Source: an uncultured virus (IMG/VR IMGVR_UViG_3300025168_000062)
Taxonomy: Duplodnaviria; Heunggongvirae; Uroviricota; Caudoviricetes
Length of the DNA: 64,000 nt
Virus record (IMG/VR): IMGVR_UViG_3300025168_000062
Reading direction: 5' to 3' (one strand)
Shown: positions 1,431 through 41,900 of the stretch, in pieces
How positions within the stretch are numbered: position 1 is the stretch's first letter
Layout: every line of letters starts with the position of its first letter
Made by a program: the position numbers and the translations under genes
The notes under the pieces: generated by a model
What the model was told of the DNA's origin: nothing
The model's input: the letters and a program-made list of their open reading frames with translations, nothing else
The model's database searches: none

Positions 1431-1450
1431 TCGACCCCTCGAGGGGTCGA
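1431..1450. repeat. Perfect 20-bp palindrome TCGACCCCTCGAGGGGTCGA
   Basis: Equals its own reverse complement; lies between repeat copies 1 and 2. Confidence 0.9.
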
Positions 1451-1604
1451 GCTCTCTCTCAGGGGCGGACCACGAGGACTGTGACCTTTGTGCAAATGGC
1501 TCGAGCCCTAGATGGTTGAGAGAGTAACGCCGCCGGTCAGGGCGAGAGGGGAACAAGGCGCTCAAACGCCCCTTGCTCCTTTACGAAATACTCCAATTAA
1601 CTGC

Positions 1605-1946
1605 TCACAATGCCGCGCTCAGTTTAGCACACTCTTTGCACCAGCTCCCAGATTTCTTGCTCAATTTAATCGCAATTTTTCTAGTCGATGCTCCAATTGT
1701 GTTTCCGTGCTCGCAGACACTCAAATGCACAGCGAGACGCTTTTTTGACTCGTCCATGATTTTTAGCTCTTCGAAGTCACTCCCTTTGTGGGTCACACAT
1801 CCGACCCAGATTTTTGCAGGTCCCCTAACTTTTAGGGTCCATGCACCCGGCACTCCAATTTCTTCGCTCGTTTTTGCGTTCGCTGGACCAGTAACTCTTT
1901 TGCACTCTTTCCAATAATTTTCACTCTCAATTTCCATATTTTTCAC
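1605..1946 (-). CDS. Hypothetical protein with C-x-HG...WCxxC zinc-binding motif
   Basis: 113 aa; VCEHGNT...SWCKEC; minus-strand TATA-like box at 2000-2009. Confidence 0.7.
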   Translation of the reverse strand: MKNMEIESENYWKECKRVTGPANAKTSEEIGVPGAWTLKVRGPAKIWVGCVTHKGSDFEELKIMDESKKRLAVHLSVCEHGNTIGASTRKIAIKLSKKSGSWCKECAKLSAAL

Positions 1947-2215
1947 TCTGATTCCCAGATGACTCCCGGCTTTTCGGCCTACCTCGTCGTATCGTTAATC
2001 CTTTATAACTGTTTCGGACTCTTGAGCTCTGCTCGAGCACAGGCTACTCAGCGTTATGAGAACACACCCCACTCTACCGGGGTCGGTGGCGGTCGTTTGA
2101 GAAAATCACTACTCTGGGGCGGACCCCACCGAGAGAGCCCTTTTAGGGCCTCTCCCCGAGCCCACTCTCCCCGCGAGAGAGTCCGTATTGCTCGAGTGGT
2201 CGAGAGTCACAATAG

Positions 2216-2225
2216 TTTATATAGT
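2216..2225 (+). promoter_or_regulatory. TATA box TTTATATAGT
   Basis: Same motif as at 69; upstream of GGAGG SD and ORF 2275. Confidence 0.7.
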
Positions 2226-2274
2226 ATGGCTGACATGAGGAGGTAGCGCGAAAAGCGCAACGGAGGAATGAAAA

Positions 2275-2481
2275 ATGAGTAAAGTGAAAATTGCAGAAAT
2301 GAGCGTAAAGGTGGTCCAACACCTCTTGAGGGAAGGTCGTTGGTTAGAAGAAAAAGGGAGGTATGAGCACGAGCGAATAGTGACCACGATAGTTAGGTCA
2401 CCAATTGACCTCGGTATTGATGCTCCCCTAAGTTCTCACGAGTTAGAGGCAATCTTGAGCCAACACTTGGCGAGCCTGTAA
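2275..2481 (+). CDS. Small hypothetical protein
   Basis: 68 aa; GGAGG SD, promoter upstream, hairpin downstream. Confidence 0.7.
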   Translation: MSKVKIAEMSVKVVQHLLREGRWLEEKGRYEHERIVTTIVRSPIDLGIDAPLSSHELEAILSQHLASL

Positions 2482-2505
2482 GCAAGAGACAGAGAACAAC
2501 GTAAG

Positions 2506-2531
2506 CGAGGCGTCTCAATAGGGGCGTCTCG
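2506..2531 (+). terminator. GC-rich hairpin downstream of ORF 2275-2481
   Basis: CGAGGCGTCTC-AATA-GGGGCGTCTCG pairs fully on + strand using G-U pairs. Confidence 0.45.
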
Positions 2532-2659
2532 TGTTTCCTGAGCACAGGGGCGGGACCAACACCCCCGGACCTTTGAAGGTCTCGGTCGAGATATATTCAC
2601 CTCCAGATGAGGGGTCGTGAGTCCACTATGTTTATATAGTATGACGAATATGGTAGATT

Positions 2660-2881
2660 ATGGAAGAATGCTGTGCTTGCGACGAACCTCAGGGAAAACT
2701 AACTCACTACCAAACTCTATATATGATTGAATCAGTCGGCAAGGAAGGTCTAAAACTTGGGTCGATAGTTGATGGTCTAGTTGTTGGGTCTGTGCAAACA
2801 CTCCTATTATGTGAGGCCTGTTGGGTCCATATATATGTCGATGAATCAGATGCACTCAGGGATGAAGAAATGGTCCCCTAA
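2660..2881 (+). CDS. Small zinc-finger protein, leaderless
   Basis: CCAC and CEAC motifs; TATA box at 2631, 29 nt before ATG; T-run after stop. Confidence 0.65.
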   Translation: MEECCACDEPQGKLTHYQTLYMIESVGKEGLKLGSIVDGLVVGSVQTLLLCEACWVHIYVDESDALRDEEMVP

Positions 2882-3052
2882 TCTTTTTTCTCTCCACAGG
2901 GGCGGGACCTATGTGCCGAGACCTTTGAAGTTCTCAGGTCGAGCAAAACTACACACAGGGGCGGGACCTTGACCGCGAGACCTTTGAAGTTCTAGGCTCG
3001 AGCATGTAGGCTAGCGGGAGAGCTCGAGAGAGCTCGTCTTTTAGAGAGAGAG

Positions 3053-4264: not shown

Positions 4265-4288
4265 GAGAACTTTTTATTATTTTTTTTG
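4248..4288 (+). terminator. Hairpin GGTCGC-CTAGT-GCGACC followed by T-tracts
   Basis: Perfect 6-bp stem then TTTTTATTATTTTTTTT at the edge of the GAG-free segment. Confidence 0.4.
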
Positions 4289-6058: not shown

Positions 6059-7554
6059 TCCTCTATAACAGGTTTGAACATACTTCCAATCATACCTTCT
6101 TCGCGGTCTATGATATGTGCAGACATTCCCGCTTGTGAAAGATACCCTTTTCTAAAGTGCCAACGGTCGTGACCGGAAAGCGAAGGTAATTGAATACAAA
6201 ATGCACCACCATGTTCTTTTAGTGCTTGGTGATGAAGATGACCTGTGAACCAAACACGGTATCTGCATTGACCCCACTTTTCCCATGCTTCTCTAGCCAT
6301 AGTGCTAGGTAAAGCATTTGCTTTTACTCCATCCCCATGTGTAAATCCTAAAAGTGCATTTCCATACACAACATACTGCCTATTCATGTTAGGGTCAAGA
6401 ATTACTTCACAATCCTCACAATCTTTGTATGTTGCCTTAAGATAAAGCCCTAATGCTAAGGTAGAGTGCATATCGTGATTACCTGCCATGAATACAATCT
6501 TAACAGGCGCAACACTTCTCAACATATCTATATGCTCCCTTGCTAATTCGCAACCATCTAGGAGAATCTGTGCCGGACTTCCATATCTATCCTGAGCAGT
6601 GCCTTTTGTTGTTGTCCCTAAATCATTATCCACATGAAACCAATCTGAGCCTGCGGCAACAATAATTTTTTCAGGAGCTCCCGGTAGTCTTGAAACCAAT
6701 GCGCTTGTTGCATCATGGAGTCTTTTTCTTGCTTCATCAAAATCATACCGTTCCCCTACTTCATCTTCCCAACCATATTTACCGTAATGGAGGTCAGTTG
6801 GGGATATAACAAGTGCGTAAGGCTTAGTTTTTTGCAGAACTAACTTTTTAACAGGTCTATTCTTAGGATGATGGACTTTTAGATGCTCGATAAACGTATC
6901 TTCAAAGTTTCTCCATTTATTCGCATCTTTCTGAATCTCATCCCACTTTTTCTTTTCGTATGTTATGTGTAGCGACCTTCTTCTTCGTAATAACAAATCA
7001 TCCACTAAATCCTCAACAGAATCAGCAAGTAATAGTTCTTCATCAGTAAATGGGTCCATGTCGTGCGTCCAACCATAAATACGTCTATACTCGTCAAACC
7101 ACATTCTAGGAATCTGAAAATCACGAGACATTTGCCCGACACTTGATGATTTATTAACCATATTACTATATGCCGTTTTCATAGCCCTGTGAACATCACC
7201 GCTCACTGTTATTGGCTTATTACCTGCCGCTCTAATGAAGGTCACATAAACATCGGTTTCAGAATTGTAATAATAAGGCTCATCAGAAATCCAAGTTGCA
7301 TCTGCATCATCTAGGCTTAACTGTTTTTCTGCAAAAGGGTCTAGTTGTGGGGATTTATCGGGGTATAACTGTCTGAATCGTGAGACTGTGCTTTTCCACG
7401 ATGCAACAGTCTTAGGTCCTTCACCATTAGTATTATAGTTAATATCCCATAGGTAGGTGGCGAATTGAACATCAGTTCCCGTCCAATTCTCTAAATGCGG
7501 GGTTATTCTTCCCAATGTTTTTTCTCGCATACCTTGTCGTCTTTCAGTTACCAT
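6055..7554 (-). CDS. Calcineurin-like metallophosphoesterase with uncharacterised N-terminal half
   Basis: DLHYG, GSDWFH, GNHD, HGD and GHLH motifs. Confidence 0.85.
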   Translation of the reverse strand: MVTERRQGMREKTLGRITPHLENWTGTDVQFATYLWDINYNTNGEGPKTVASWKSTVSRFRQLYPDKSPQLDPFAEKQLSLDDADATWISDEPYYYNSETDVYVTFIRAAGNKPITVSGDVHRAMKTAYSNMVNKSSSVGQMSRDFQIPRMWFDEYRRIYGWTHDMDPFTDEELLLADSVEDLVDDLLLRRRRSLHITYEKKKWDEIQKDANKWRNFEDTFIEHLKVHHPKNRPVKKLVLQKTKPYALVISPTDLHYGKYGWEDEVGERYDFDEARKRLHDATSALVSRLPGAPEKIIVAAGSDWFHVDNDLGTTTKGTAQDRYGSPAQILLDGCELAREHIDMLRSVAPVKIVFMAGNHDMHSTLALGLYLKATYKDCEDCEVILDPNMNRQYVVYGNALLGFTHGDGVKANALPSTMAREAWEKWGQCRYRVWFTGHLHHQALKEHGGAFCIQLPSLSGHDRWHFRKGYLSQAGMSAHIIDREEGMIGSMFKPVIEE

Positions 7555-9099: not shown

Positions 9100-9101
9100 G
9101 C

Positions 9102-10457
9102 ATGGTCAATCCACCACCACCCGTCGATAACGAGACACATGACGATTACATGGCAAGATGCACACTATCGGGACATTCAGAAGAATCCTGTATGGTAGCG
9201 CATGAAGGTCATAAGTTTATGGAACAGGATAAGGCACATACCCCTGCCGACCACAAAGCAAGTCAATCTTGCGTATGCGTGGATGAATGCCAAGAATTAC
9301 CTAACTGTAAAGATAAATCTATCAGTGTTGCTACTAAACTAACAGTAGATGATACTAAGATGTTTGTTAATGCAACAACGGGTGAAACGGTTATATTAAT
9401 CACAGGAACAGCATTTCATAGCGGAGCGAATAAGAACAATTGGGAGTTAGGCGCAGAAGCAGGTATGAGTGTTGCAGACCAACTAAAGGGAGCAGACTTA
9501 ACATTAAATCATCCTAAAGCAAACGGTGCAGGGTTTTCAAGAAATATGGATGGTGGAGTAGATGAGGCTACCGTTGGTATAGTGACCAAGGCAGAGTTTT
9601 TGCTAACAGAAGAAAAGGGAGCAGGATGGGTTGTTGAATACGAAGCAGAGGTTCATAGAAAAGAACTCTTTGAAGCATTAGAATCTGGTCTTTGGTTAAG
9701 ACCTGAATACGGTGTATCTATTGGCGGATATGGAATCCCCACAGAATATAACGAAGAAACAGGATATGCTATGTTCGCAAGTGAGTTCACATTAGACCAT
9801 TTGGCTATCGTTCATAGACCGGCTTATCCTGATGCAACAATTGACACAGCAACGGTAGTTAATGTTCAGAAAAGGGCTGAGCCAAAGGAGAGCATAGCAA
9901 CACTTAAGTATGGTGCGGCTCAAGTTCAAGCCAACGAGGAATCGAATATGACTGATGATGTAATTGAATCTAATGATATGAAGAACGAGCTCGAAGCGTT
10001 ACAGGCTGAATTAATTCTTAGCCGAGCGACTGTCGAGCAATTCCAAGCAAAAGAAGCAGAAGTGGCAGAAAGCCAAAGAGCATCTTTAGTGGAAGAAGCG
10101 ACTGCCCTTGGTCTGAGCGGACATGAAGCACTGCCTTCTGCTGTAATCACAAGTTTGATTGCATCATGGCAAGCATCTAATCCTCCAGCCGAGGTAAAAG
10201 AAATGAAGCCTGTTGAAGCGGCAAGCGAAGCAATAGTAGAGGCATCTGCCCCTGCTGTAAGCGGAGAAACTGTTTTCGTGGCTAATTACTTTAATGGTTC
10301 ACACCTAAAAACTGCTGAAAGCATTTATGCTAGAGCATTTAATTCATGGGCTAGTGCCTACAACAGAGGTCTTGGGATGTCTGATGATAAGGCTACTAGA
10401 TACGAAGACCTAAACCAAACACAAAGAGATTTACTAAACTTCACGGAGGAGAGATAA
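9102..10457 (+). CDS. Prohead protease fused to scaffold
   Basis: LNH...VSIG...HLAIVHRPAY protease-like motifs; coiled-coil acidic C-terminal half; lies between portal and capsid. Confidence 0.8.
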   Translation: MVNPPPPVDNETHDDYMARCTLSGHSEESCMVAHEGHKFMEQDKAHTPADHKASQSCVCVDECQELPNCKDKSISVATKLTVDDTKMFVNATTGETVILITGTAFHSGANKNNWELGAEAGMSVADQLKGADLTLNHPKANGAGFSRNMDGGVDEATVGIVTKAEFLLTEEKGAGWVVEYEAEVHRKELFEALESGLWLRPEYGVSIGGYGIPTEYNEETGYAMFASEFTLDHLAIVHRPAYPDATIDTATVVNVQKRAEPKESIATLKYGAAQVQANEESNMTDDVIESNDMKNELEALQAELILSRATVEQFQAKEAEVAESQRASLVEEATALGLSGHEALPSAVITSLIASWQASNPPAEVKEMKPVEAASEAIVEASAPAVSGETVFVANYFNGSHLKTAESIYARAFNSWASAYNRGLGMSDDKATRYEDLNQTQRDLLNFTEER

Positions 10458-15298: not shown

Positions 15299-15400
15299 GG
15301 GTGAGTTAGAGGTGAGAAGATAATGGATGATTTAGGATGTGGAATTGAAGCCCATCCTTTTATCATATCAATTATGAAGATGATAGGTATAGTGATTTAG

Positions 15401-27034: not shown

Positions 27035-28099
27035 ATGAGTATAGCGACAACAAATCAATTTTGGACTAGCCGTAATCACGGTGATGACCCAACAGCAAGT
27101 GATGGTGAAGTTTGGTCTGCATCCGGTTCAGGAATAGCAGATGGTGCTTATTGGAAAATAACATCAAGTGGTTATTATTCGGTCGCTCCTTCAACATCAG
27201 ATGATTTAACAATACTAGCCACAGTATTCTATCCTAATGCGGCAGACATTCCCGCAGACGGAACGACTCTTATGCTACTAAGAAGCGACAGCCACGCCGT
27301 TGAAGTTCAGTCCACAGGATTAGCCACAAGCCTAAAGATAGTGGGAGCAACAACCTCTATTTTTTCAAACTTAGACTTGACAATGATAGAAAACGAGCCT
27401 TATATTACAACGGTTAGACTTACTCTAGATTCTTTAGGTAATGCTAAACTATATGTTCATGAGATTATGGAAGATGATTTTGGAACAGATAGGTCTTTAT
27501 CTGTTGTAGGTTCTTCTGTCGGCACAGGGAGATATATACAATGGGGAAGTAATGATGGAGAAACTAAGTGGGGAACAGTTTACGCAACACATCATGGAGC
27601 ATTTAATCCCGATGAATTATCACAATCAGCATTCTATCAATCAACACTAAACAGATTAGGATTATCTATAAGAGACACACTAAGGAATAGTAAACGAGGA
27701 ACTATAAAAGAAATCCCCGATTCTAGTATTGTCTTTGGTTATGACCTTTCTTCTTCTATGATAATGCGCTTATCCCCCCCAACCATACACGTTCTAACAA
27801 GTGGCTCGGGTTCTGATAACTTTGACACATTAGGAGGAACTAGCATTTATCAAAACCATTTAGCAAACATAATGGTCACAACAAAAGGAACGGATTACAA
27901 AGAAGCCTACCGTTTCGGACTAAGGATAATAGGTGATGTGTTTGATGAATTATTTACTAATACAGGGCTTAATGGTAGCATAGATTCTATCACAGGGTAT
28001 GAGCTCATACTAGATACTAAGGTTGATAATGATGAAATGGTATGTGTTCATCAACTAAGTCTAACATATATGCGAAGAGAGCGAATGACGAAGCGGTAA
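27035..28099 (+). CDS. Putative tail terminator with N-terminal extra domain
   Basis: Immediately before tail tube; C-terminal 150 aa terminator-sized. Confidence 0.5.
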   Translation: MSIATTNQFWTSRNHGDDPTASDGEVWSASGSGIADGAYWKITSSGYYSVAPSTSDDLTILATVFYPNAADIPADGTTLMLLRSDSHAVEVQSTGLATSLKIVGATTSIFSNLDLTMIENEPYITTVRLTLDSLGNAKLYVHEIMEDDFGTDRSLSVVGSSVGTGRYIQWGSNDGETKWGTVYATHHGAFNPDELSQSAFYQSTLNRLGLSIRDTLRNSKRGTIKEIPDSSIVFGYDLSSSMIMRLSPPTIHVLTSGSGSDNFDTLGGTSIYQNHLANIMVTTKGTDYKEAYRFGLRIIGDVFDELFTNTGLNGSIDSITGYELILDTKVDNDEMVCVHQLSLTYMRRERMTKR

Positions 28100-30125: not shown

Positions 30126-32998
30126 TGGCAAAAATGGGTGGCGCACGAACCTTCTTTACGGTTTATGCCTCTATTAAATCCGAACAAATCTTAGACGATG
30201 CTAATGCTCTAGGTGCTGTATTAACTGCTGTCTTTACAGACGCAATAGAAGGTATGATGATTGCTTTCGAGGAAGTGTTCATGGGTATTGAACAATGGAA
30301 TGACGCATTATTCGGACTCCAAGAGCCAATAGAAATGGCTAAAATACATTTTGAAAAGTTTTTCGATGATGTAGGACCGGAAGTAATACAATTAGAACAA
30401 GACATAATGAAGATAGGCGCGGCCTATAATCAATCAGCCGCAGAATCTTTAGAAGCGGCCGCAACAATGGCGCAGTTAGGAAGTGTTATAGGCGGTCAAC
30501 CTGCACAGGGCGCGGCAAGAGAAGGTGCTATGCTATTAGGTGCGGTCGGTATGATGGAAACAGAAGCCGCTATGTCTGCATTAACACAACTTCAACTCCA
30601 AACAGGATATATGTATGACGGCCTTACTAGAGCTCAGCGTGAACTTCTTACAGAAGAAGAGCAAAGAGCAATAGTAATGAGCAATACAATAGGACTTGTT
30701 GATAAACTTAACGAAGTGGAAAATAATAGCGGTGCAACAATACAGAACCTCATAGGTGCTATGAATCAATATGCTTCGGCGGCAACGATAGTTAATACAA
30801 CATTAGATGAGCAAATAGCATTGGGCGCAACACTTATCGAACAAGGTGAACAATCCTCTAAGGCTGGTCGTGGTATCAAACAGATGCTTGCTAGATTAGC
30901 GTCTGATAGGTCGGGCAACAATGCTCTTTTAGCAGAATACAATGTGCAGGTAAAAGATGCAGACGGTAATATGTTCACACTAATGGATGTTATGACACAA
31001 CTAAAACCTAAGTGGGATGAATTAAACTCTTCACAACAGACTAATATCGCTATTGGTGTTGCAGGTGCTCATCACTATGTTAGATTTATTAAGTTAATGG
31101 AAGGTTATGATAGAGCAGTAGAGATACAAGAAGCATCATTGAGTTCACTAGGTAGTGCTTATGAAGAATACGCTATATTCCAAAACAACGCGGCCTACCA
31201 GACACAACTATACGAAAAAGAAATAGATTTATTACAATCTAGTATAGCAGAAAAACTTTTACCTGCACAACTAAGAGCGGCGCAGACACAGTATATGCTT
31301 ATTGCTAATCAAGAAAAAATCTTTAATAGTAAGTATATGGGTGGGCTTTTGCTTGCAGGTAATACATGGATGATGATAGGCTCGACAGTATTCGCAACTA
31401 TGAAAGGATTGATAGCATTCGGTCTTGCTTTAGCAGGTATAGGTGTGGCTCAAAAAACTCTTTTGGCGCAAATGGTAGCAAGAACAAATGCTCAAAAAGT
31501 TAATAATGTTTATGCTAATGCCGAAATGGGAACTCAGTTAAAGTTAGTAGAGGGAACTAGACTTCTTAACCATCTTAAAAACGCAGGCTTAACAGCATCC
31601 TTGACTGAAACAGAATTGAACCAATTAGCACTATTTGCTCTAGAACATAAAGGGGCAGTAGAGTTGTATAATACTAATCTAAAAGTCGCGCAGGTTAAAC
31701 TTGAACAGACATACGCACAGAGTGTAATGGACGGAGTTTTAGCAGAAAGATTGAAGGGTAGTGTAATGAATAAGAATTGGCATATCACCTCGCAGGTAGT
31801 TGGTCTACAACAAATGGGAGTGCGGTTGGCGGGTTTAAGTGTTAAGCAACTCAATTCAGAAATAAGAGCACAAACTGTTAAATTAAATGCCCAAAGGACA
31901 ATTATAATGGCTAAAGAAAACGAGTTAATAATGAATAGTGCTTTAACGGAATCAGAAAGGGCTTTATTAAATCTTGAGACAACAAGATTAAGAAATGAGT
32001 ATAATATAGGACAAGCAGGTTTGAATGTTAAGAGGGCTAGACTTAATTTTATGGATAATGAAATAGTAAAGCAACATCTATTGAATAGGACTACTGAGCA
32101 GTATTTGCAGACCACAACAACAACTCAACGGGCAGAGGTAAATGAATTATATCTTAAGATGATATTAGCGGCTCAAGATGATGAAACATTACTAACTAAA
32201 ATTAAATTAATAGATGTAAAGTTGTTTGAAATGCAAGTTAATCAAGCAATAGCGGCCGGACAAATCACCGAAATACAAGGTCGTAAATTACTTGGGCTAG
32301 CCTTGAAAAAAGAAATGTTTACAAGAACGAGCCTAATGAAAATCACAATGATGACAACAAACTCTTTAATGTTAGCCTCTATGGCTATGATGCTATTAGG
32401 GAATAATACAGATGCTATGGAGGCTTCGGCAATTCTAATGACATTAGCATTCGTTCCTATGATTGGTATGACTATGCAGGCAACTGCTCAAATGACTAAA
32501 TTAGCAGGTGCTACGGCTTATGCTAGTGGTGGTCTTACAATACTATTCGCCACGATAGCCGCCGCCGCCGCTTATGGTTTATCAAAGCACTTTGATTTCT
32601 TTGGTGATGCAGGCTCCGATATGGATGATATGATGGAGCAGTTAGAAGCAGATACGGCGGAAGCAGAAAGGTTATACAAACAATTCGCACTAGAACAAGA
32701 AAACTATATGAGTGGTGAAATGGGTATGATGGATGACTGGACTAGCAGTATTGATGATATGACAGATTCTATGCAAGAGTTTGATGATAAAAGATTAGAA
32801 ATATTCTTTGGTGGAAGAAGGTCTGCTATGGATGGTGCTATGTTTAAGGAATTAAAACAGAACGGTGTTGAGAACTTATACTTCGCACCGGAGGTTTTTG
32901 TGACCAATAATTTTAATGGAGTCACATACGCAGAAGCGGCAGATTTAGTTTCAGACTCGATTGAAGAAAGATTAAAAGCAACGGGTGTTCTTCAATGA
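30125..32998 (+). CDS. Tape measure protein
   Basis: 957 aa Ala/Leu/Met-rich helical protein, AGRGIKQMLARL...VKDADGNM core, hydrophobic segments. Confidence 0.9.
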   Translation: MAKMGGARTFFTVYASIKSEQILDDANALGAVLTAVFTDAIEGMMIAFEEVFMGIEQWNDALFGLQEPIEMAKIHFEKFFDDVGPEVIQLEQDIMKIGAAYNQSAAESLEAAATMAQLGSVIGGQPAQGAAREGAMLLGAVGMMETEAAMSALTQLQLQTGYMYDGLTRAQRELLTEEEQRAIVMSNTIGLVDKLNEVENNSGATIQNLIGAMNQYASAATIVNTTLDEQIALGATLIEQGEQSSKAGRGIKQMLARLASDRSGNNALLAEYNVQVKDADGNMFTLMDVMTQLKPKWDELNSSQQTNIAIGVAGAHHYVRFIKLMEGYDRAVEIQEASLSSLGSAYEEYAIFQNNAAYQTQLYEKEIDLLQSSIAEKLLPAQLRAAQTQYMLIANQEKIFNSKYMGGLLLAGNTWMMIGSTVFATMKGLIAFGLALAGIGVAQKTLLAQMVARTNAQKVNNVYANAEMGTQLKLVEGTRLLNHLKNAGLTASLTETELNQLALFALEHKGAVELYNTNLKVAQVKLEQTYAQSVMDGVLAERLKGSVMNKNWHITSQVVGLQQMGVRLAGLSVKQLNSEIRAQTVKLNAQRTIIMAKENELIMNSALTESERALLNLETTRLRNEYNIGQAGLNVKRARLNFMDNEIVKQHLLNRTTEQYLQTTTTTQRAEVNELYLKMILAAQDDETLLTKIKLIDVKLFEMQVNQAIAAGQITEIQGRKLLGLALKKEMFTRTSLMKITMMTTNSLMLASMAMMLLGNNTDAMEASAILMTLAFVPMIGMTMQATAQMTKLAGATAYASGGLTILFATIAAAAAYGLSKHFDFFGDAGSDMDDMMEQLEADTAEAERLYKQFALEQENYMSGEMGMMDDWTSSIDDMTDSMQEFDDKRLEIFFGGRRSAMDGAMFKELKQNGVENLYFAPEVFVTNNFNGVTYAEAADLVSDSIEERLKATGVLQ

Positions 32999-35900
32999 CA
33001 AGACACATGATGAATCATAATAGTCAGACTAGAAAATACACTTCCGGTCAGCCTTTCGATGAAGATTATCAAGTTTGGTTATCGGGGTATTGGGAAGATT
33101 TTACATCATCTTATTCATTACCGGAGGCATCTAGCAACACATTAAATCTTTCAGATACTCATTTTGGAAATCCTTTGAATGCAGAAGCAAGACTAAATCC
33201 CCATTACAGATGGTCTTATGCGGATAGGACTTCAACATATAGTGGAGCAACAGTTTATGGTGCAGGGATGGTCACTAATGATATAAAAGAACTCCATAAT
33301 TTAAGTATGGCGGAATGGTTTAGCGTAGACCCTGTTAGGTTAGGTAAAGGAAGAGATTTTACTTCTAAAATAAATAACGAATATTTAGATTCTCATGCTC
33401 ATAGTAATAGGTATAGGTTAGGTGGTAAAGGAGAATTAGATAGTTATATTCTTATGACTACTTCTCATGTAGCAGGTGGTAAGTATATTATAGATAATGG
33501 GGAAATAGATTCTTCTTTTGCTAGGTCTGATAGTGTGGGATATAATTTTTCACAGACAGCAGGTATTACTGGAGCAGTTAATACATCATACGCATCATCC
33601 AATGGTGCAGTATTGAATGCGGCACTTATTGATTATTCGGAAGTATTTAATGATTCCGGTCAAGATGCTAAAGTATTTAGAACCGTTAGTGCAAGCACCA
33701 CAGGCTCTTTTACAATAGATACTGCCCCTACTGATATACTAACAACAGGAACATGGAGCTCTAACCAACACGCCGCATACATATTAGGGGCTGAAATAAA
33801 ATCCCCTTCACGCACTCCATTCCTTGCTATAAGAAACACAATGCCTGTGACTCATAGAATAAATGGAGATGTTGCACCTACGGGAACAGACGGTGTATGG
33901 AGATACACAGGTGCTAAAAGAGAACTGCATCACTTTAGAGTTGGGGATATTGTTCAAGTTGGTAAGCACGATGAGTATGCTGTCATACAGGCATTCAACA
34001 GCGATAAGACTTCAATCACAAAACTATACAGTTTAAGCAGAAATCAATTATTAAATGTTAGTAAGTTCAAAAGCACCTCAGGGGATTACATAGAAGGTGG
34101 AGCGTCAGAATCCAATGTTGATATTAGAAAATGGTTCGAGCCTGTTATGACTTATGATGGTTCTTTGAATTGTGTAGGTGATGGTGATACATTCCACATT
34201 AGATATTGCCCCCTAGTAGTCAAATCTAACGGCCTTCCTGATAGTGATAGGGTTGCACATTACATATTAAGAGTTGGCTTCGACTCGTCAAGGCTAAATA
34301 TGACTTCTAAAGGTAATAGATATGAATTATCCGGTAGTGATTACAACCCTTCTCATTCTTGCGCCGCTATACAGTTTGAAATACAACCGCACTCAACATC
34401 CGAAGCACAAAAAATAGACCATAATGTAAACTTAGTAAGGGTAAGTAGTCTTGATTCTAGTATAGCATCCGCTCATAAACAATCTTTTATTGACTATGAC
34501 GCAACAAGCACAATAACGACCCCAAACTATTCTAACGAGTGGCAACAATGGATGGATATAGACGTAGTGATGGACTTTACTAACCAAAGATATAAGGTCT
34601 ATGTTGATGGTTTTGAAAGTGGAACTTTTAATTTTGAAACTAAACCTTCGGGAGGTTCTTGGGTCGCATCAGATTTATATGGCTGGCACATGGACCACGC
34701 TTCACTTCAAAAAGACGGTTCATATACACCGGACAATGGAGGTAATGAATATGCTTTGACCGCAGGTAAGTTTTGGGGTCCAAAATCAGAAATTACTACT
34801 ACTATGTGGACTTTAATAGACAGGGCAGGTATAGTTAATGAGATAACTAACCCTGTAAGAAACAGCCCTAATAGTATTGTTGCCGCTAATGATTTATCAA
34901 TCCAAGAGATAACTTATGATGCAGGCATAAACGAAACTTCTAGGTTATCTATGCTAATAATAGATGATGATAACGAAAGACAAATACAAGATATATTTTC
35001 ATCATCCCCTTCGGAGTGGATGGTTTTGTTATTCAAGAATGGTATAGACTCTATTTATTGGAATGGATTTTTGGATAAAGTAAGGGTAACACAAGATGGT
35101 AAGAAGAAAACAAGAACTATTCAATTAATATCAAGAGATGCTATTGGAAGATTAGACGGTATAATGCCTTATTGGGAAGTTGGTCAGAACGAATTAACAA
35201 TATCCACTAACTACAAATACAGAGAAGCAGAAGCAAGAATGGTTTCGGAAAACTTTTACTTTGGTGCAAGAGCATTACTTAGGGGTAATGAAACAATAGG
35301 AATGGACCACCAAACAAGAGCGAAAGATTCTTATGCTTCAACAACAGAAATAGGAGCAATATCGGGGTATTATACTTCTAGGTATGACCAAAGGACTAGA
35401 CTATATTCTGCTAACCCTATTCAGATGTATGTTGGTCAAGATGACTTTGGACCTAAAGTTGATAGTGATGTCTATAACACAGCACCTACGGCAGAGCATT
35501 CTGATAAGAATATATGGAGACAATGGAATACTAGAAAAATATTGGGCTTTAGTGATGGAAGGAGCATGGGGCAAAAATACATAGTAGCACATTGTATAGA
35601 GCATGGGCTTTCAGTTAATGACGAGTTTAAGATATATGGTGAACATCATACAAATGCCTTTACTACGACAAGCGCAGGCGTTAATGGTTTAGATATAGTA
35701 GTAAAGAAAATAATAGACATACATCATTTTGCTTTTGAATACAAATCATCAGTCGGTAATATATTCGGCCATCTAGGTGATGAAGCAGGGCATTTTTGGT
35801 CGGTTATAACAAGACATACTGATAAGCATGGTCTAGGTTTTGACTTAGGTTCGACAAGCCCCTATACCTATACAGGTTGGGCTCAAGGAAACTTTAGTAG

Positions 35901-38900
35901 TAATAGTGCTCGTGGCTTAATACCAATATCACAAAACTTCGCAACAGGTATGGGGAGGTTTGATGCAAGCAATACTAAACAATGGAGTTCTTATTACACA
36001 AACAACGTATGGACTCTGAATGACAACCAAGTGGTTACCTCCAATATTGCGGCGACTGAAGAAACGATAGATAATAATAGTGATGGTCAGAGTGATTCTT
36101 TTATTAACAATACAGTATCTAAAGCAATGAGTATACAGTTTGATAATGGAGATGAAAATTATGCTCCTACTGGTGTGCCTAATTTTAGAGGTTATACTTC
36201 TTACCAATTCAAACCTTTGGGTGTGATAGAGTTAAAACATAACAGTATTTATCCACTAATCGACTTACATGGTTTAGGAACGGTAGGTCCTTTGTTTAAT
36301 TTTAACGATGGAAGATTATTGCCTACTTCTTCTGACGCTTATGATTATAGACACGCGTTAGAGTATGTTGGAACAATAGGAACGACATTCAGAAGTCAAT
36401 TATTTAGTATTGTTGATTATTACCGCGCCTTTAGAAAAACTCTAGAAAAACATAGTAGTAATGGTAGGGAGATTATAGGCACTCCCGAAGGAACAGTTAG
36501 TCAAGCACCTAGAACCACAGGGGTAGGTATTGACTATAACCTAAGAATGCTTATTAGGGGTAATGATATAGACCAAAGAGACCCTCATAAGATACCTTCT
36601 CTTAGTGTGACCGAAAATAGTTTAGGGGCAAGCGATACATATGAAGGAAGAGCAACTAACTTTATACAAAGAGGAAACACAGGTATTAAAATAACAGCAC
36701 AAAGCGGTTCGGGCTCTAACATCCAACTGACTATAACTACTTCACAAACTTTTCAATTACCATTCTCAGGTTTTGGAACATTTGGACCTAATGGAACCGC
36801 ACAAGGTTTGTTTAGATGGACTGGGGTTGATGATACTAACCACAAACTAACAGGGGTTACTATATTAGCATCGGGCTCTACTTCATTAGCACAGCATATA
36901 AGTAATAATACGGCATCACTTACACCCTTTATTTTTCCTGTAATATCAACTAACCAAGCATTATTTACTCCACCTACTGCAAGACAACCAAAACAACAAT
37001 ATAGAGTTGCACACGCTTCTTATATGCACGATATTGCATCCTCGATGTGGTTTAGAATGGTGTTCGGTATCATAGAAGAGCAGGCGGCAGGTGTTGATGG
37101 ACCACCACATAATGAAAAGGCTAGAAGGGGTAATAAGTTAAGTAATATGGTAGGTAATAGTTTGAGCGGTTGGCACTACCAAGAACGTGAAGGTGAAAGT
37201 AATGACCTATATACTACACAGTATAGCGACTACTTTACACTAAGAAGCGCATACACAGCAGGGGGAACGACATTAGTTTTAGATAAAGCAACACCCCCAC
37301 TTATTGATGAAAACTTTAAGGATAGGAGATATATAGACAAAGGTAGTCTTTCATACGATACAGGCACAGACCCACTAATAAGTATTCCTTCTAGAGCAAA
37401 TGCACACTCAACTAAGAGACAGATGCTCAATGGTGGTTTGGTATTTGAAATAGAAAACCCCAACGGAACTCTAGATGTGGGGGCGGCAAGGTCAGCACAA
37501 ATGACTTCGTGTGCTGATGATACGGCATCGTTCACGCATTGGGAAATAGTAAAACTCACACAAAGCGAGATAGTTAATACACTAAAACCTAACACAGCAG
37601 ATATAGATGAAAATAATAGTTTCGTAGGTGGTGATTGGACTATGCCTAACAAGAGCACTATTACATCATTCCCCGGTCCAATAGTATTAACGGCCGCACA
37701 TAATCCCTCTAATTTATTAACAGGAAATAAACCTGCCTATACTGACAATAGACTATTCGACCCAGACTTTTTCCATAGTGGTAATGACGAAGCAGTATCA
37801 GGAGCAAGAATGTTCCAAAGCCTAGATATAGGAGATATAATATTTGTTGGTAATACACAAGGCACTATTACTAATCAACCCATTACCGGCTCGTTAGATT
37901 CACACTATAATGTGGATAATCATTATGGGGAAGATAGAGATTTTGTATCATATAGATGGTATAGGATTCTTGATAAAGCCACCGACCATTCAACAATTAC
38001 TATATTCCCCGCAGAATATTCTTACTGTAATCACGATTTACAATCAGATAATGGAACATACATAAACAGACATCCGGTAGGTATGCACATTGTCGCTCAT
38101 GATGCCGTAGGTCAGTTCAAAGGTTGGTATAATAAATTAAAAAGAGGAGCAGATGCAAACGATTATCAAGGAGACTTACCCTCTGGATTTCCTACTGTAA
38201 AACAACCTATCTGTAAAATATACTCTGGTGATATTACAATAAGTGGCGTAAAGCATCTTAAAAACAATCATCTTGCAGGTGCAAAGGGTAGGTTTAGAAG
38301 AATTAGAAATAACTTTAATCATGTTTGGTTAAATTGGGCTGATATGAGAAACGATGGAAGCGCAGACGCAGATGGTTCATTTAGACAATCTAAGTTTGGC
38401 TTACTATACCCAACAGAAGAGCAGTATAGTGTTGATTTAGTATTTTCTAGCACACAAGCAGACATTACTTCACTAGGAATAGGAAGTGATGTAGACCTTT
38501 GGGAACTAACAGACACAGACCCTTTTACGAATGGTGCTTGGTCTGCTAACTATAATAACAAGATAACTAATATGACTCACTTGCATGATTGGGAGTCTAA
38601 AGCAGGAGCACCTATTGCTGTTGATGCTAGTAAGTATTTCAACCTAAACACTATGACAAATAATGGAAAAATAGGTCAAACTTCGGGAGGCACTAAAAAT
38701 ATTGCAGATTATGATTATACAGTTTCGGGTAATGCTCAACTTATGGATAATTATTGGTGGCAGGCAGGTCCTCACCCATATACTGCTAAGTATAGACACC
38801 CTTATGACCCTAACTTCCAATTTTATGTTAGATACGAAACTAGATTAGCAGAAGATTTAGATGGTAAGCCATTAATGTTAATAGACTCATCTAATCTTTA

Positions 38901-41900
38901 TCACGGTAGTTATTTTAACGACACTAAAAGTGTGGGAATTATGGAATCAGTAGATGCGGATGATGACCAACTAAATACATTCACATACAAAATGGGGGGT
39001 TGTTTTGTCAATAAGTATGATGAGAACCAAAGTAATGCTCAAAGACTATACATGGGATTAGGTGCAGAAAAGGTCGATAAGTCGGTTGGTGTATGGACTG
39101 ACCCAATAGGATATAGTATGGGTAATACACAGTCTAGCGAAAATAATAGTGGGGGCATAGTTTCTAATGGAGAACATACTGTCTATAACGCATGGGCTTC
39201 ACAAATGGGGCTAGGTTCTATGATGGTAATGCAAGGTCATGTGGAATCTAGAGGTTCAAACACTTACTATGACCACGATAAGATTAGAATAATTTTTCAA
39301 TCACATAATACAGAATCATGGTTATCCGGTTCACAAATCCCCTGTTCTTACGACATTAACAACGTGCCTATATCTTATGATATGACAATAGATTCATTCG
39401 GTTCAGTAATGGATGGAAGAGGGACAACAACATTACGAATGATTTCTAATATTAGAAAATCTTCCGGTAATGGCGATGCGGGTAATTACCAAGCATTTAA
39501 CTATATGATTGGAAGAAACGGAAGGTTCGAGTATAGACCTACTTATAACTCAGGAATTAGTCTGACTAGAAATGACTTAAATAAATCTGATGTTGACCAA
39601 GAAGCAAGAGCTCAATTTACACACGTTAGGATTTATTACAATAATGGTGAATCATTTGTTGATACTCCAACACCTATACTTGATGGTTCACAAGTTAAGT
39701 TTAAGATGCTAAACCTACCATCGGTAAGAAGTAGCACAGAAGCAACTGCGGCAGGGGATAGGGAATTAGAGAGAGTTAGGGATAAAGAAATAACTGTTCT
39801 TGCTACAATAAAAGATGATACAAAGGGTTTATTCACAGGCGGTCTGTATGGATATATCTCCACACCATTAGTCCAATGTCTTTCGGGTCTTGCTAGTAGT
39901 TATGGCTCGTTTTTCCCACATGGAAATCTTACAGGCCAAATTATAGGCGGGAGACAAAATGCTATGGATGGTAATTTAGATGCTACTAATTCTTCACTAA
40001 TAGGTGCTACGTCAAGTATGGCTTTCCTTGATACGGGCTCTGGTAATCACGGTGGGGGTGGGTGTAATACTTATGATACCCACGCTACTAAATGGTATGG
40101 TCAATACACGCCATACGGTATTCATTGTATAGAAAAGGCTGTTCAAATAGTGCATATACCAAAAGGAGTTCCAAAAGTAAGCACAGGGTCTAATCAAAAA
40201 CTAAGAATGTTTATTACTCATAAATCCGCATCTGCTAACGGGGCAGAGTTTAGGCTTTGGTTGATAGATTCACATTTCGATTCACAGAGAAGACAGGGCT
40301 ATACGGGTAATAACCCATTAACTACTGCTAAGATTTCATACTTAGACATAACTAAAAATGGATTTCATGAAATATCATTCCCAACGTCATACGGAGCTCC
40401 TAGCGGGGCTAAGATGATAGTATCATTCAATAAAGAGTATTGTATGGACTTACTAAAATATAGAAGTAATCATACGACAAGTTCTAAGTCAAACAAAGGT
40501 AATAGAGTAACAACATTACCTTCAACAGATGTTAGTCTATTAGACCTTTCGCATGGTAATCCGGTCAATGAAGCATCGGCATTCCCGTTAGGATTGTCTC
40601 TATATTATAGGCCACATGGTTCAGAAGATTCACAAGGCAGACAAGGACCGTTATGGCAACTTAGACCAAGAGCACTATACTACGCCCCTAGTGTTGAGAT
40701 AGTGGATGACTTTGCGTATAGGGTAGGAACTGACTTAAACTATAATGATGACCACCTAAGCATAAATACTTCACTTACTGTTAGTAAGTTAAATTGGAAA
40801 ATAAAAGAACAAGATAACGAAGAATTAGAATTGAGATTAATAAAAAATAAATCACAAGAAGTTAAATATTTAAGTTTAGGTGTTGGAACGACCCCTACGC
40901 CGCCACAAGCAGGCAACCCACCTTCTAATGGTGGTAATGGTCTACCAGGAGGCGGTTTAGGTGACCAGATACCATATTTACCGGGAGATGACATAGGCGG
41001 AGCTCCGGGTTGGGGTGGGTTGAAACCACCACAAAGAGGAGGCATGGGTTCACAACATGAATTATCAGGCGGTATTACTAAAGCAAGCAGAATAAGCAAT
41101 ATATCAGGAGCACCTGTTCAGAATGTTGGCGGTCTAGGAAGCACTATGACTGGTAGTAAGGTTGGGATTAGTAAAATGAGCAAAGGTGCTACTAATACTA
41201 TCAAAGGTATTGACAAAATAGATGGAGAAAGATGGACTAATAAGCAAGTAATAAAAAATAAATCTACTTCAAAAGAAGCAATAGGGCAAGTTAAATCGAC
41301 TAGCAGTGGTAGTGCTGTTATAGGAGCAGATGGATTTACTCTACCGGGTGTATCAGCATTGTTTGCAGATGGAACAAGCATCCCTGCTAAGGCAGATTAC
41401 CACGAAGGCTCTACAACGATAACTGTTCCTAGTGCAGTATCTAATGACAAAATAAGTGTTGTGCTTACTGTAAAAGCACCTTTAACCGGCGGCGGGAGCA
41501 AATACACTCTGTTTTCCACACTAGAATGTATAGAAACAGGGGAAATGCAACGTAAAGTAGTAAGTATAACAGCAGATGATACACCAAAAAGAATTGCTCT
41601 ATTCACAACAAGAAAATTAATAGGTGCGGGAACGGTAGGTAATAGAATTAAAATCACAGTTGGTCGAGTTCCCGGAGGTGGTTTGCTTGCTAATCCCGAT
41701 GGTGATGATGACTCACCGTTTTCATCAATGAAAATAAAAAGTATAGAAGTATCATTTAATGAAACGAGCAAAGGTAAAGATACAGGTATTATTAGCACTA
41801 GGGATAAGATAACTACGAAAGATAATACACAAGGATTTATGAGCGGAACAGATAAAGCGTGGGATTCAAAAACTTCTGATGCTACATTTGACGCTTCCGG

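What the first reader, a model, noticed from the sequence alone, without database searches (positions are those of the whole stretch)
1450..41005. AGCT occurs only as GAGCTC
Seen: every AGCT I found lies in GAGCTC (about 1450, 2024, 3020, 3030, 6675, 9987, 17697, 28001, 30570, 33756, 39608, 40394, 41000). Gly-Ala in the collagen genes is otherwise written GGA GCA/GCC/GCG or GGG/GGT GCT. GAGCTC is the only AGCT context in which the A on both strands is inside a GAG. Inference: a host AGCT-cutting enzyme selects against the site unless a GAG-directed adenine modification (or a GAGCTC methylase) protects both strands. This independently supports the GAG-modification model and points to A as the target.
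Basis: partly seen in the sequence, partly recalled or inferred. Interest (0 to 1): 0.8.

Follow-up and report, generated by a model that had tools for sequence, protein, structure and literature searches.

The report
GAG-marking enzyme shields viral restriction sites
This uncultured marine virus has purged almost every AGCT from its DNA except where the site sits inside GAGCTC, and the pattern of surviving sites indicates that a virus-encoded enzyme marks the A of every GAG and so hides those sites from host restriction enzymes.

Summary
Observation partly confirmed. The window has 16 AGCT against about 236 expected. Thirteen lie in GAGCTC (10.3 expected). The window is a tailed virus, probably archaeal, that also lacks GATC, GTAC, GCWGC and dozens of 6-bp palindromes.

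In 64 relatives without the methyltransferase gene (938 kb), GAGCTC occurs 1 time against 185 expected. In four genomes of the one clade that carries it (244 kb), GAGCTC is 35 against 40, half-sites 11 against 301, and all other AGCT contexts 0 against 564.

In the same clade, the surviving AGGCCT, AGCGCT, AGTACT, TCTAGA, TCCGGA and TCATGA sites nearly all carry a flank that puts their terminal A inside GAG. Relatives show no such bias. Only the central A:T pair of GAG lies inside every shielded site, and the bases around GAG are random. The mark therefore sits on the A of a 3-bp GAG motif, not on a GAGCTC-specific site.

The likely enzyme is the PPY-type methyltransferase at 49084-50262. It overlaps a tandem-GNAT gene, and both proteins end in the polymerase's EWL tail.

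No chemistry has been shown. CTCGAG stays scarce outside one repeat region. Earlier notes of this scan reached a similar reading on other genomes.

The parts
1449..1454 (.). GAGCTC site (AGCT with both adenines in GAG)
2024..2029 (.). GAGCTC site
3020..3035 (.). Two GAGCTC sites (3020, 3030) interleaved with a CTCGAG (3023) in the string GAGCTCGAGAGAGCTC
6675..6680 (.). GAGCTC site inside the exonuclease gene
9987..9992 (.). GAGCTC site (one of only two whose position is kept in G005)
17697..17702 (.). GAGCTC site; holds the only GGA GCT (Gly-Ala) codon pair of the collagen-like genes
28001..28006 (.). GAGCTC site
30630..30635 (.).
33756..33761 (.). GAGCTC site
39608..39613 (.). GAGCTC site
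40394..40399 (.). GAGCTC site
41000..41005 (.). GAGCTC site
1117..1122 (.).
1642..1647 (.).
1764..1769 (.).
49084..50262 (-). PPY-type SAM methyltransferase (392 aa). It is the only methyltransferase-like gene found in the window and the candidate GAG-marking enzyme. Motif I is DPFCGGSVRG (179-188), the catalytic loop is CPPY (251-254), and the protein ends in EWL.
   Evidence: PF01555 at 42 bits against a cut-off of 26.7; phrog_498 and phrog_12517; motifs invariant in 42 homologues; confident Rossmann core resembling TrmN, Trm14, PrmC and M.TaqI; present only in the clade that keeps GAGCTC
48155..49093 (-). Tandem-GNAT protein (312 aa) shaped like DUF2156 / MprF C-domain / FemX. It overlaps the methyltransferase gene by 10 nt and ends in EWL. 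It is a possible second step of the modification.
   Evidence: AF2 model with pLDDT 85.6; Foldseek 2hqy at E 8e-12 and TMq 0.69, plus A-PGS, MprF and FemX; 13 homologues only, all with a W[LIV] tail; sits next to the methyltransferase in every contig long enough to show it
45104..47305 (-). Family B DNA polymerase ending in EWL; it defines the tail shared with the two modification proteins
50959..51792 (-). Conserved 277-aa replication-module protein; a candidate sliding clamp (lead only)
   Evidence: nearest named Atlas clusters are gp45 sliding clamp at 0.91-0.92; no PDB sequence hit; conserved across the family
56534..57199 (-). Unknown 221-aa protein; the fourth and last ORF of the window that ends in EWL
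47302..47790 (-). Nucleoside 2-deoxyribosyltransferase-like protein; absent from the complete methyltransferase-less relative G002
1300..3050 (.). Repeat-rich, ORF-poor region that holds 8 of the window's 9 CTCGAG, 4 of its 13 GAGCTC and, with its left edge, all 3 AGCT half-sites

Best explanation
The window is nearly a whole genome of an uncultured marine tailed virus, probably of an archaeon. Its whole family escapes host restriction by deleting recognition sites, above all AGCT and GATC.

One clade gained a small gene cassette next to its DNA polymerase. The key gene is a PPY-type SAM-dependent amino-methyltransferase (49084-50262). I infer that it modifies the adenine of every 5'-GAG-3' on whichever strand it occurs, most simply to N6-methyladenine.

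An AGCT flanked as GAGCTC carries the mark on both strands. An AGCT-specific enzyme cannot cut it, so GAGCTC drifts at its neutral frequency. AGCT with one GAG flank is only half-marked and is still almost fully purged. AGCT in any other context is lethal and absent.

For several 6-bp sites (AGGCCT, AGCGCT, AGTACT, TCTAGA, TCCGGA, TCATGA) one marked strand seems to be enough.

The enzyme and its neighbour, a tandem-GNAT protein, both carry the polymerase's C-terminal EWL tail. They are therefore probably brought to the replication machinery and mark new DNA as it is made.

Shown here: the counts, the clade-specific footprints, the gene distribution, the folds and the shared tail. Inferred: that the footprints come from a base modification, that this gene makes it, that the mark is N6-methyl, that the tail docks on a clamp, and that the host has an AGCT-cutting enzyme.
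For: (a) In the window GAGCTC is 13 observed against 10.3 expected, while the other 15 NAGCTN hexamers total 3 against about 226.

(b) Four genomes with the methyltransferase (window, G005, G006, G011; 244 kb) have GAGCTC 35 against 40.2, half-sites 11 against 301, and other contexts 0 against 564. Sixty-four relatives without it (938 kb) have 1 against 185.5, 6 against 1,237 and 9 against 2,079.

(c) The methyltransferase was found in 2 of the 5 records searched. The complete 73.8-kb relative G002 lacks it and has AGCT 0 and GAGCTC 0 against 17 expected.

(d) Flank footprints in the window, G005 and G006: AGGCCT plus AGCGCT have a GAG-making flank in 16 of 16 sites (5.9 expected), and TCTAGA, TCCGGA, TCATGA and TCGCGA in 54 of 69 (25.2 expected). 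In relatives the figures are 10 of 30 and 104 of 232. Fisher tests give P = 6e-6 and 1e-6. Only the GAG-making flank letter is enriched.

(e) In an unbiased screen of 112 palindrome-by-flank tests, the GAG-making combinations rank 1, 4, 5, 6, 9 and 14.

(f) The bases before and after GAG in shielding contexts match the background (chi-square P = 0.95 and 0.98), so the motif is 3 bp.

(g) Only the central A:T pair of GAG/CTC lies inside both the AG....CT and the TC....GA site types. This follows directly from the sequences.

(h) GAGCTC positions turn over between genomes: 2 of 12 alignable sites are kept. This fits neutral drift under protection.

(i) The gene is the only methyltransferase-like ORF found in the Pfam and PHROG scans. 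Its fold matches enzymes that methylate exocyclic amino groups.

(j) The EWL tail occurs on 4 of 150 ORFs: polymerase, methyltransferase, GNAT and one unknown protein. Among 121 methyltransferase homologues, only the 9 of this viral clade have it.

(k) Literature, passages seen: AluI, XbaI and XhoI are m6A-sensitive, and Eco147I (AGGCCT) and Eco47III (AGCGCT) were blocked by adenine methylation (PMC3299994). AGCT and GATC are methylated in marine archaeal genomes (PMC8919816). Haloarchaeal viruses with a Dam methylase keep GATC and those without lack it (PMC8651126).
Against: No chemical or kinetic evidence of any modification exists.

The carriers of the methyltransferase form one clade on the polymerase tree. 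The presence/absence association therefore rests on a single gain, and several other genes share the same distribution: the GNAT, the Ndt-like gene, 50453-50992, 44739-45164, the 2OG oxygenase and others.

CTCGAG has both adenines in GAG and should be shielded. In the window 8 of its 9 copies lie in the 1323-3023 repeat region, leaving 1 against about 9.7 expected elsewhere. In G005 all 5 lie in one 4.6-kb region.

A global test was not significant: 3 of 11 hexamers released in the methyltransferase clade contain GAG, against 8 of 77 still avoided (P = 0.14).

Some G..C flank enrichments that do not make GAG also appear (ATATAT, CGGCCG, ACCGGT, TTATAA).

The catalytic loop reads CPPY rather than the canonical D/N/S-PPY. 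The N-terminal 157 residues, which should read the DNA, are modelled with low confidence.

Contigs carrying 50%-identical homologues of the enzyme gave no information on GAG.

The host is unknown. The one genome-collection hit was a 2.8-kb contig in a bacterial bin.
Confidence: 0.7

Rival explanations
1. The protecting enzyme is a conventional palindromic GAGCTC (SacI-type) methylase, viral or host. The A of GAG as such is not the target.
For: GAGCTC is the main surviving AGCT context. A 6-bp methylase that modifies the A or the inner C would block an AGCT enzyme.
Against: It does not explain why all 11 AGCT outside GAGCTC are half-sites (P = 9e-6). It also does not explain the GAG-flank bias at AGGCCT, AGCGCT, AGTACT, TCTAGA, TCCGGA and TCATGA, none of which contains GAGCTC.
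Confidence: 0.05
2. A GAG-context mark exists but is not made by the 49084-50262 enzyme. It comes from a host enzyme particular to this clade's hosts, or from another clade-specific viral gene, and the viral methyltransferase has a different target.
For: The association rests on one gain, and several other genes have the same distribution. The specificity of this large methyltransferase family is uncharacterised: at least 8,000 relatives, none with a named specificity among the 120 listed.
Against: It is the only methyltransferase-like ORF found in the window. It belongs to the class that methylates exocyclic amino groups. Within this clade alone it has acquired the polymerase's tail, which argues that it acts on replicating viral DNA.
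Confidence: 0.1
3. The modified base is the T of CTC on the opposite strand, for example a sequence-specific oxidation to 5-hydroxymethyluracil, rather than the A of GAG.
For: The footprints locate only the central A:T pair, not the strand. Sequence-specific post-replicative phage thymine dioxygenases exist (PMC13229309, abstract and outline seen). The clade has a 2OG-Fe(II) oxygenase at 23590-24147 that G002-G004 lack.
Against: That oxygenase matches PF13640 and prolyl-4-hydroxylase/PKHD-type structures, not TET/JBP, and it lies beside the collagen-like fibre genes. PPY-type enzymes act on amino groups, which thymine lacks.
Confidence: 0.03
4. GAGCTC survives because it is a functional signal (packaging, promoter or protein-binding site), or the pattern is an accident of codon usage.
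For: Four of the 13 GAGCTC and 8 of the 9 CTCGAG cluster in the repeat region 1300-3050, so some copies may be functional there.
Against: The other nine sites are scattered through coding sequence in all three frames. Only 2 of 12 alignable sites keep their position in G005 or G006. Chance is excluded at P = 1e-17. Relatives with similar genes and collagen repeats have none.
Confidence: 0.02

Closest known systems
Virus-encoded orphan methylases that let a virus keep a motif its relatives purge (phiCh1-like Dam, GATC, in haloarchaeal tailed viruses; PMC8651126, passages seen)
   Same: The logic is the same. Relatives without the enzyme lack the motif and carriers keep it. The setting is also the same: archaeal-type tailed viruses, and the polymerase here hits HVTV-1-like haloviruses best.
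   Different: Here the inferred motif is 3 bp and asymmetric. It only partly overlaps the restricted sites, so the virus combines near-total site avoidance with rescue of the sub-contexts that contain GAG. The enzyme family is also different.
Very short-motif or non-specific viral adenine methylases: chlorovirus M.CviQII (AG) and Hia5/Hin1523/Nma1821 of Mu-like prophages (PMC3299994, passages seen)
   Same: They are adenine-directed and have almost no sequence requirement. They protect against many restriction enzymes at once, and AluI, XbaI, XhoI, Eco147I and Eco47III are among the enzymes affected.
   Different: The footprints here need G on both sides of the A: AAGCTT, CAGCTG and TAGCTA are 0, and only the GAG-making flank is enriched. 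Homology to these enzymes was not tested. No cognate nicking enzyme is evident.
M1.HpyAVI of Helicobacter pylori, a beta-class N6-adenine methylase of GAGG, relaxed to GGAG and GAAG in strain 26695 (PMC5173035, passages seen)
   Same: It is an asymmetric short adenine motif that contains GAG, made by an N6-adenine enzyme with the PPY chemistry.
   Different: That enzyme needs a fourth base and belongs to a cellular restriction-modification system. Here neither the base before nor the base after GAG matters. The motif order is motif I before the PPY loop, and the loop reads CPPY.
ParB-fused N6/N4 methylases of the phage ParB-Tls locus (PMC6536676 and PMC12704722, passages seen)
   Same: The window's enzyme is 45-56% identical to the methylase part of this very large phage family.
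   Different: The window's protein has no ParB domain (only PF01555). It lies in the replication module next to the polymerase, not next to the terminase. It carries the EWL tail instead.
Two-step phage DNA hypermodification that starts from a methylase-like enzyme: CmoX/CmoY, 5-carboxymethylcytosine then glycine amide (PMC12783734, abstract and outline seen). Phage Mu Mom, a GNAT-like adenine N6 modifier, is recalled only and was not checked here.
   Same: A methylase-like enzyme is paired with an amino-acid-handling enzyme in a virus, and the result is broad anti-restriction.
   Different: No Cx-SAM synthase was seen in the window. The partner here is an aminoacyl-tRNA-transferase-like tandem GNAT, not an ATP-dependent ligase. 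The target is adenine, not cytosine. No chemistry is known.

Membership tests
Restriction-site avoidance in a virus genome | The recognition site is far below expectation under composition and Markov models | tested here: met
   AGCT 16 against 236 (composition) or 220 (Markov). GATC 0 and GTAC 0, each against 236 by composition (187 and 164 by Markov). GCWGC is 0, and about 20 six-base palindromes are 0.
Restriction-site avoidance in a virus genome | The host encodes an enzyme that cuts the avoided site | not testable with these tools
   The host is unknown. The only support is indirect: AGCT and GATC methylation is reported in marine archaeal genomes (PMC8919816).
PPY-type exocyclic-amino DNA methyltransferase (Pfam PF01555 N6_N4_Mtase) | Profile match above the curated cut-off | tested here: met
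   42 bits against 26.7, residues 246-375; phrog_498 at E 1.9e-81.
PPY-type exocyclic-amino DNA methyltransferase (Pfam PF01555 N6_N4_Mtase) | Class I Rossmann fold with a glycine-rich SAM loop | tested here: met
   The core 158-376 is modelled confidently. Foldseek matches TrmN, Trm14, PrmC and M.TaqI. D179 P180 F181 G183 G184 are invariant in 42 homologues.
PPY-type exocyclic-amino DNA methyltransferase (Pfam PF01555 N6_N4_Mtase) | Catalytic (D/N/S)-P-P-(Y/F) loop | tested here: inconclusive
   The loop is C251-P-P-Y254, invariant in 42 homologues. Cys is not one of the canonical residues.
PPY-type exocyclic-amino DNA methyltransferase (Pfam PF01555 N6_N4_Mtase) | Transfers methyl to N6 of adenine in a defined motif | not testable with these tools
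   Inferred only, from the GAG footprints.
ParB-methylase fusion of the ParB-Tls locus | N-terminal ParB/CTPase domain (PF02195) and a position beside the large terminase | tested here: not met
   There is no PF02195 in the 392-aa protein; longer homologues of 500-620 aa have it. The gene lies 2 kb from the polymerase and 43 kb from the terminase.
SacI-type GAGCTC modification methylase | Specificity for the 6-bp palindrome only | tested here: not met
   Footprints extend to half-sites and to seven other palindromes through flanking GAG. This is indirect evidence.
Chlorovirus-type short-motif methylase with a cognate nicking endonuclease (M.CviQII / Nt.CviQII) | A frequent-cutting nuclease gene paired with the methylase | tested here: inconclusive
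   An HNH/HTH ORF (47787-48164) lies two genes away, but it is also present in G002, which lacks the methylase.
Aminoacyl-tRNA-dependent tandem-GNAT transferases (DUF2156 / MprF C-domain / FemX), for the neighbour 48155-49093 | Tandem GNAT fold | tested here: met
   pLDDT 85.6. Foldseek gives 2hqy at E 8e-12 and TMq 0.69, plus 4v34, 9goe and 4ii9. PF09924 is precomputed on 4 of 13 homologues, but the window's own protein gave no Pfam hit at E <= 0.001.
Aminoacyl-tRNA-dependent tandem-GNAT transferases (DUF2156 / MprF C-domain / FemX), for the neighbour 48155-49093 | Uses aminoacyl-tRNA as donor; acceptor identified | not testable with these tools
   No data.

The most novel reading that the evidence does not exclude
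The mark on GAG is not a simple methyl group. The CPPY methylase-like enzyme and the overlapping aminoacyl-tRNA-transferase-like tandem GNAT would both be tethered to the viral replisome through the polymerase's EWL tail. Together they would build an amino-acid-bearing or otherwise bulkier adduct on N6 of adenine as the DNA is copied. That would be an adenine hypermodification pathway of a chemistry not yet described, with a 3-bp address.
Probability: 0.2. Interest if true: 0.9.

Novelty: new variant of a known kind. Interest (0 to 1): 0.65.

Why it matters
It shows that a virus can combine two counter-defences: wholesale deletion of restriction sites, and a very short-motif base mark that rescues the sub-contexts the mark happens to cover.

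It also shows that the specificity and target base of an uncharacterised modification enzyme can be read from the footprint it leaves in which sites survive. That gives a concrete, cheap prediction (modified A in GAG) for one branch of a huge, unstudied family of phage methylases.

A 3-bp adenine-marking enzyme would be a useful reagent for chromatin footprinting and restriction blocking.

The shared polymerase tail suggests a way for viruses to couple DNA marking to replication. The tandem-GNAT partner may point to new DNA chemistry in viruses of uncultured marine archaea.

Tried and rejected
No whole genome is held for the window. The nearest record, G001, is 62.7 kb and carries the same methylase.

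This genome had no earlier notes in the scan.

Contigs carrying 50%-identical homologues of the methylase (G007-G010) are unrelated viruses with other avoidance patterns and too few GAGCTC expected (0.8-3.8), so they say nothing about GAG.

GANTC and CTNAG could have tested hemi-protection, but they are not avoided in this clade.

CTCGAG and GAGCAC/GTGCTC first looked like independent support: 0 in G002-G004 against normal counts in the methylase clade. I rejected them as firm evidence. Many methylase-less relatives keep both, and CTCGAG in the window and in G005 is confined to one region.

The global released-hexamer test was not significant (P = 0.14).

Flank enrichments around 4-bp palindromes are dominated by avoidance of the 6-bp sites that contain them, so I did not use them.

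The genome-collection scan for a host gave one 2.8-kb contig in a bacterial bin. A TTTATATA-type box occurs only 4 times, so it is not a general promoter signal.

PDB sequence searches gave nothing for the GNAT gene, the candidate clamp or the 221-aa EWL protein.

Clamp docking therefore stays an inference from the shared tail.

A literature search for a GAG-only adenine methylase listed none. REBASE could not be consulted, so I do not claim that none is described.

Full report
**Observation.** The window holds 16 AGCT. Base composition predicts 236 and a second-order Markov model predicts 220. In the full NAGCTN table, GAGCTC is 13 against 10.3 expected, and the other 15 hexamers together are 3 against about 226. 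The chance that 13 or more of 16 AGCT carry both flanks is 1.3e-17. So GAGCTC is not depleted at all, while AGCT in every other context is almost eliminated. The codon remark is right: of 118 Gly-Ala pairs in the two collagen-like genes, GGA GCT occurs once (9.6 expected), and that pair is followed by C.

**What the window is.** It is close to a whole genome of a tailed virus.
- Structural genes: large terminase, portal, tail tube, tape measure, two collagen-like fibre proteins, and a 2,998-aa protein of no known family.
- Replication module on the minus strand: family B polymerase, RFC-like clamp loader, ERCC4 and PD-(D/E)XK nucleases, and one methyltransferase.
- The nearest record held is 62.7 kb and estimated 94% complete.
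- The polymerase's best matches among deposited phages are HVTV-1-like haloarchaeal tailed viruses at 24% identity. Liu et al. place those viruses among marine archaeal viruses (PMC8651126, passages). An archaeal host is therefore likely but not shown.
- The genome avoids far more than AGCT. GATC, GTAC and GCWGC are all 0. CCWGG is 4. About twenty 6-bp palindromes are 0.

**Relatives.** IMG/VR holds a large family.
- A polymerase-profile scan returned 71 loci, and terminase and methylase scans added more.
- AGCT and GATC avoidance is nearly universal. Sixty-four sequences without the methylase (61 polymerase-centred loci plus the records G002, G003 and G004; 938 kb; not de-replicated) contain 16 AGCT against about 3,500 expected and 1 GAGCTC against 185.5 expected. 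The AGCT lie in four loci (L081, L091, L100, L117).
- G002 is a complete 73.8-kb genome. It lacks the methylase and has AGCT 0, GAGCTC 0 (17 expected) and CTCGAG 0 (17 expected).
- Four genomes carry the methylase: the window, G005 (75 kb, complete), G006 (52 kb) and the deeper-branching G011 (53 kb; polymerase 56% identical). Together (244 kb) they have GAGCTC 35 against 40.2, half-sites 11 against 301, and other contexts 0 against 564.
- Shorter fragments of the same clade show the same thing: 28 GAGCTC, 5 half-sites and 0 others, by my sum of the rows (the rows for L009 and L024 are pieces of G005, already counted above).
- On a polymerase tree the carriers form one clade, so the gene-to-pattern association rests on a single gain.
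- Compared with G002, the clade also has a tandem-GNAT gene, an Ndt-like gene, 50453-50992 and some others.

**GAG rather than GAGCTC.** Three results point to a strand-wise 3-bp address.
- First, all 11 AGCT outside GAGCTC in the four genomes are half-sites. Half-sites are 35% of the expectation, which gives P = 9e-6. New AGCT sites arising by mutation should fall mostly in other contexts.
- Second, other partly avoided palindromes can only place an adenine inside GAG by way of a flank. In this clade they survive almost only with that flank.
  - AGGCCT plus AGCGCT: 16 of 16 (5.9 expected).
  - TCTAGA, TCCGGA, TCATGA and TCGCGA: 54 of 69 (25.2 expected), counted in the window, G005 and G006.
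  - Nineteen further fragments of the clade: 17 of 20 and 55 of 81.
  - Methylase-less relatives: 10 of 30 and 104 of 232, which is chance level. Fisher tests give P = 6e-6 and 1e-6.
  - The other three flank letters show no enrichment.
  - In an unbiased screen of 112 palindrome-by-flank combinations, the GAG-making ones rank 1, 4, 5, 6, 9 and 14, and AGTACT is 10 of 10.
- Third, the bases before and after GAG in these shielding contexts follow the background (P = 0.95 and 0.98).

In G|AGGCCT the site contains the A and the 3' G of GAG.

The sites are at distinct, non-repetitive places. GAGCTC positions are not conserved between genomes: 2 of 12 alignable sites are kept. That fits neutral drift, not a signal.

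**The enzyme.** The ORF at 49084-50262 is the only methyltransferase-like gene found.
- It matches PF01555 above the cut-off.
- It has a glycine-rich SAM loop (DPFCGGSVRG) upstream of a CPPY loop. Both are invariant in 42 homologues.
- It folds as a class I Rossmann methyltransferase resembling enzymes that methylate exocyclic amino groups: TrmN, Trm14, PrmC and M.TaqI.
- Its N-terminal 157 residues and last 11 residues are predicted disordered.
- It is 45-56% identical to the methylase part of a very large phage family, often fused to ParB, whose specificities are untested (PMC6536676 and PMC12704722, passages). The window's protein has no ParB domain.
- Adenine methylation blocking these sites is plausible. 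In the table of Drozdz et al., AluI, XbaI and XhoI are listed as m6A-sensitive, and Eco147I (AGGCCT) and Eco47III (AGCGCT) failed to cut adenine-methylated DNA (PMC3299994, passage).

**The neighbour and the tail.** The 312-aa ORF at 48155-49093 overlaps the methylase gene by 10 nt.
- It has only 13 homologues in the protein collection.
- It models confidently (pLDDT 85.6) as a tandem GNAT like DUF2156, the MprF C-domain and FemX.
- It sits next to the methylase in every contig long enough to show both, including G011 and L141.
Exactly 4 of 150 ORFs of at least 60 aa end in EWL: the polymerase, the methylase, the GNAT and the unknown 56534-57199.
- Of 121 methylase homologues, only the 9 of this viral clade have the tail. 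All 13 GNAT homologues end in W plus L, I or V.
- The polymerase tail is invariant across the family.
- A shared docking partner at the replisome is the natural reading. The conserved 277-aa protein at 50959-51792 is a candidate clamp on a weak lead only (Atlas 0.91-0.92 to gp45-clamp clusters; no PDB hit).

**What does not fit.**
- CTCGAG has both adenines in GAG, yet 8 of its 9 copies in the window lie in the repeat region 1323-3023, leaving 1 against about 9.7 expected elsewhere. In G005 all 5 lie within 4.6 kb. G006 and G011 have 5 each against about 9 expected. Either the enzymes that cut it ignore the mark, or the sites have not yet come back.
- The global released-hexamer test is not significant.
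- Some G..C flank excesses that do not make GAG exist.
- The CPPY loop is non-canonical.

**Host side.** Hiraoka et al. report GATC methylation throughout marine archaeal genome bins. They report AGCT at 82-91% in the two Thaumarchaeota bins and weakly in Poseidoniia, and GTAC in one euryarchaeal bin (PMC8919816, passages). This matches the family-wide avoidance of GATC and AGCT and the strain-variable avoidance of GTAC (0 in the window, 234 in G005). It is circumstantial.

**Comparison and novelty.** Several parts of this are already known:
- that a virus-encoded methylase lets a virus keep a motif its relatives purge (phiCh1-type Dam);
- that adenine methylases can have very short or no specificity (M.CviQII AG, Hia5);
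- that GAGG-type specificity exists (M1.HpyAVI).

What differs here is the pure 3-bp GAG address inferred from footprints, the mixed strategy of avoidance plus partial rescue, the replisome-type tail, and the tandem-GNAT partner. My one literature search for a GAG-only adenine methylase listed none, and REBASE was not available.

Earlier notes of this scan, on related DNA from other genomes, had already proposed the methylase-DUF2156 pair, the shared tail and a GAG/CTC mark. I re-derived the GAG reading independently before seeing them, and tested the tail and the fold here.

**Verdict.** I file the finding as a new variant of a known kind. There is a 0.2 chance that the mark is a new, bulkier adenine adduct.

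Noticed in passing
window 1-64000: Extreme palindrome avoidance beyond AGCT. GATC, GTAC and GCWGC are 0 and CCWGG is 4. AAATTT, AACGTT, ACATGT, ACTAGT, ATCGAT, ATGCAT, CTATAG, GAATTC, GTTAAC, TTTAAA, CTGCAG, GTGCAC, TGGCCA and others are 0. The non-palindromic pair GGATAC/GTATCC is also 0.
   Followed up: partly
window versus G005, G006, G011: Close relatives (80-90% protein identity) differ in which sites they purge. GTAC is 0 in the window but 234 in G005. CTAG and ACGT are 0 in G006. CGCG and CTAG are 0 in G011. GCGC is 2 in G005. This suggests fast tracking of different host restriction repertoires.
   Followed up: partly
window 1300-3050: An ORF-poor, GC-richer region with 50-90-nt direct repeats (CACAGGGGCGGGACC...GACCTTTG...CTCGAGC). 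It holds 8 of the 9 CTCGAG and the string GAGCTCGAGAGAGCTC. Three copies of a TTTATATAG box followed by ATG also occur, two of them in this region and one near position 69. The function is unknown; origin, packaging site and small-gene array are all possible.
   Followed up: partly
window 45104-47305, 48155-49093, 49084-50262, 56534-57199 (all minus strand): Four proteins end in the same C-terminal EWL, out of 150 ORFs examined. This looks like a shared docking tail.
   Followed up: yes
window 23590-24147 (+), beside 12686-22687: A prolyl-4-hydroxylase-like 2OG-Fe(II) oxygenase lies next to two collagen-like tail-fibre genes (870 and 2,428 aa). The virus may hydroxylate its own collagen repeats.
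   Followed up: partly
window 32995-41991 (+): A 2,998-aa ORF directly after the tape-measure gene has no PHROG or Pfam match. Relatives conserve it at 59-63% identity.
   Followed up: no
window, both strands; G002-G004, G011: CCAG/CTGG is depleted in a context- and genome-specific way. CCAGG is always depleted. CCAGA is nearly absent in G002 and G003, and CCAGT in G004 and G011. In the window CCAG is 66 and CTGG is 165, a strand asymmetry. GAG does not explain any of this.
   Followed up: partly
window 55235-55789 (-): A pyrimidine-dimer DNA glycosylase domain (PF03013) lies in the replication module. Also noted: a SAP-domain protein at 25407-25799 among the structural genes.
   Followed up: no
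window 49084-50262 (-), residues 18-21: The methylase family carries a second, N-terminal PPF motif (GAPPF here, VPPF in most homologues) in addition to CPPY. P20 and F21 are invariant. Its role is unknown.
   Followed up: no
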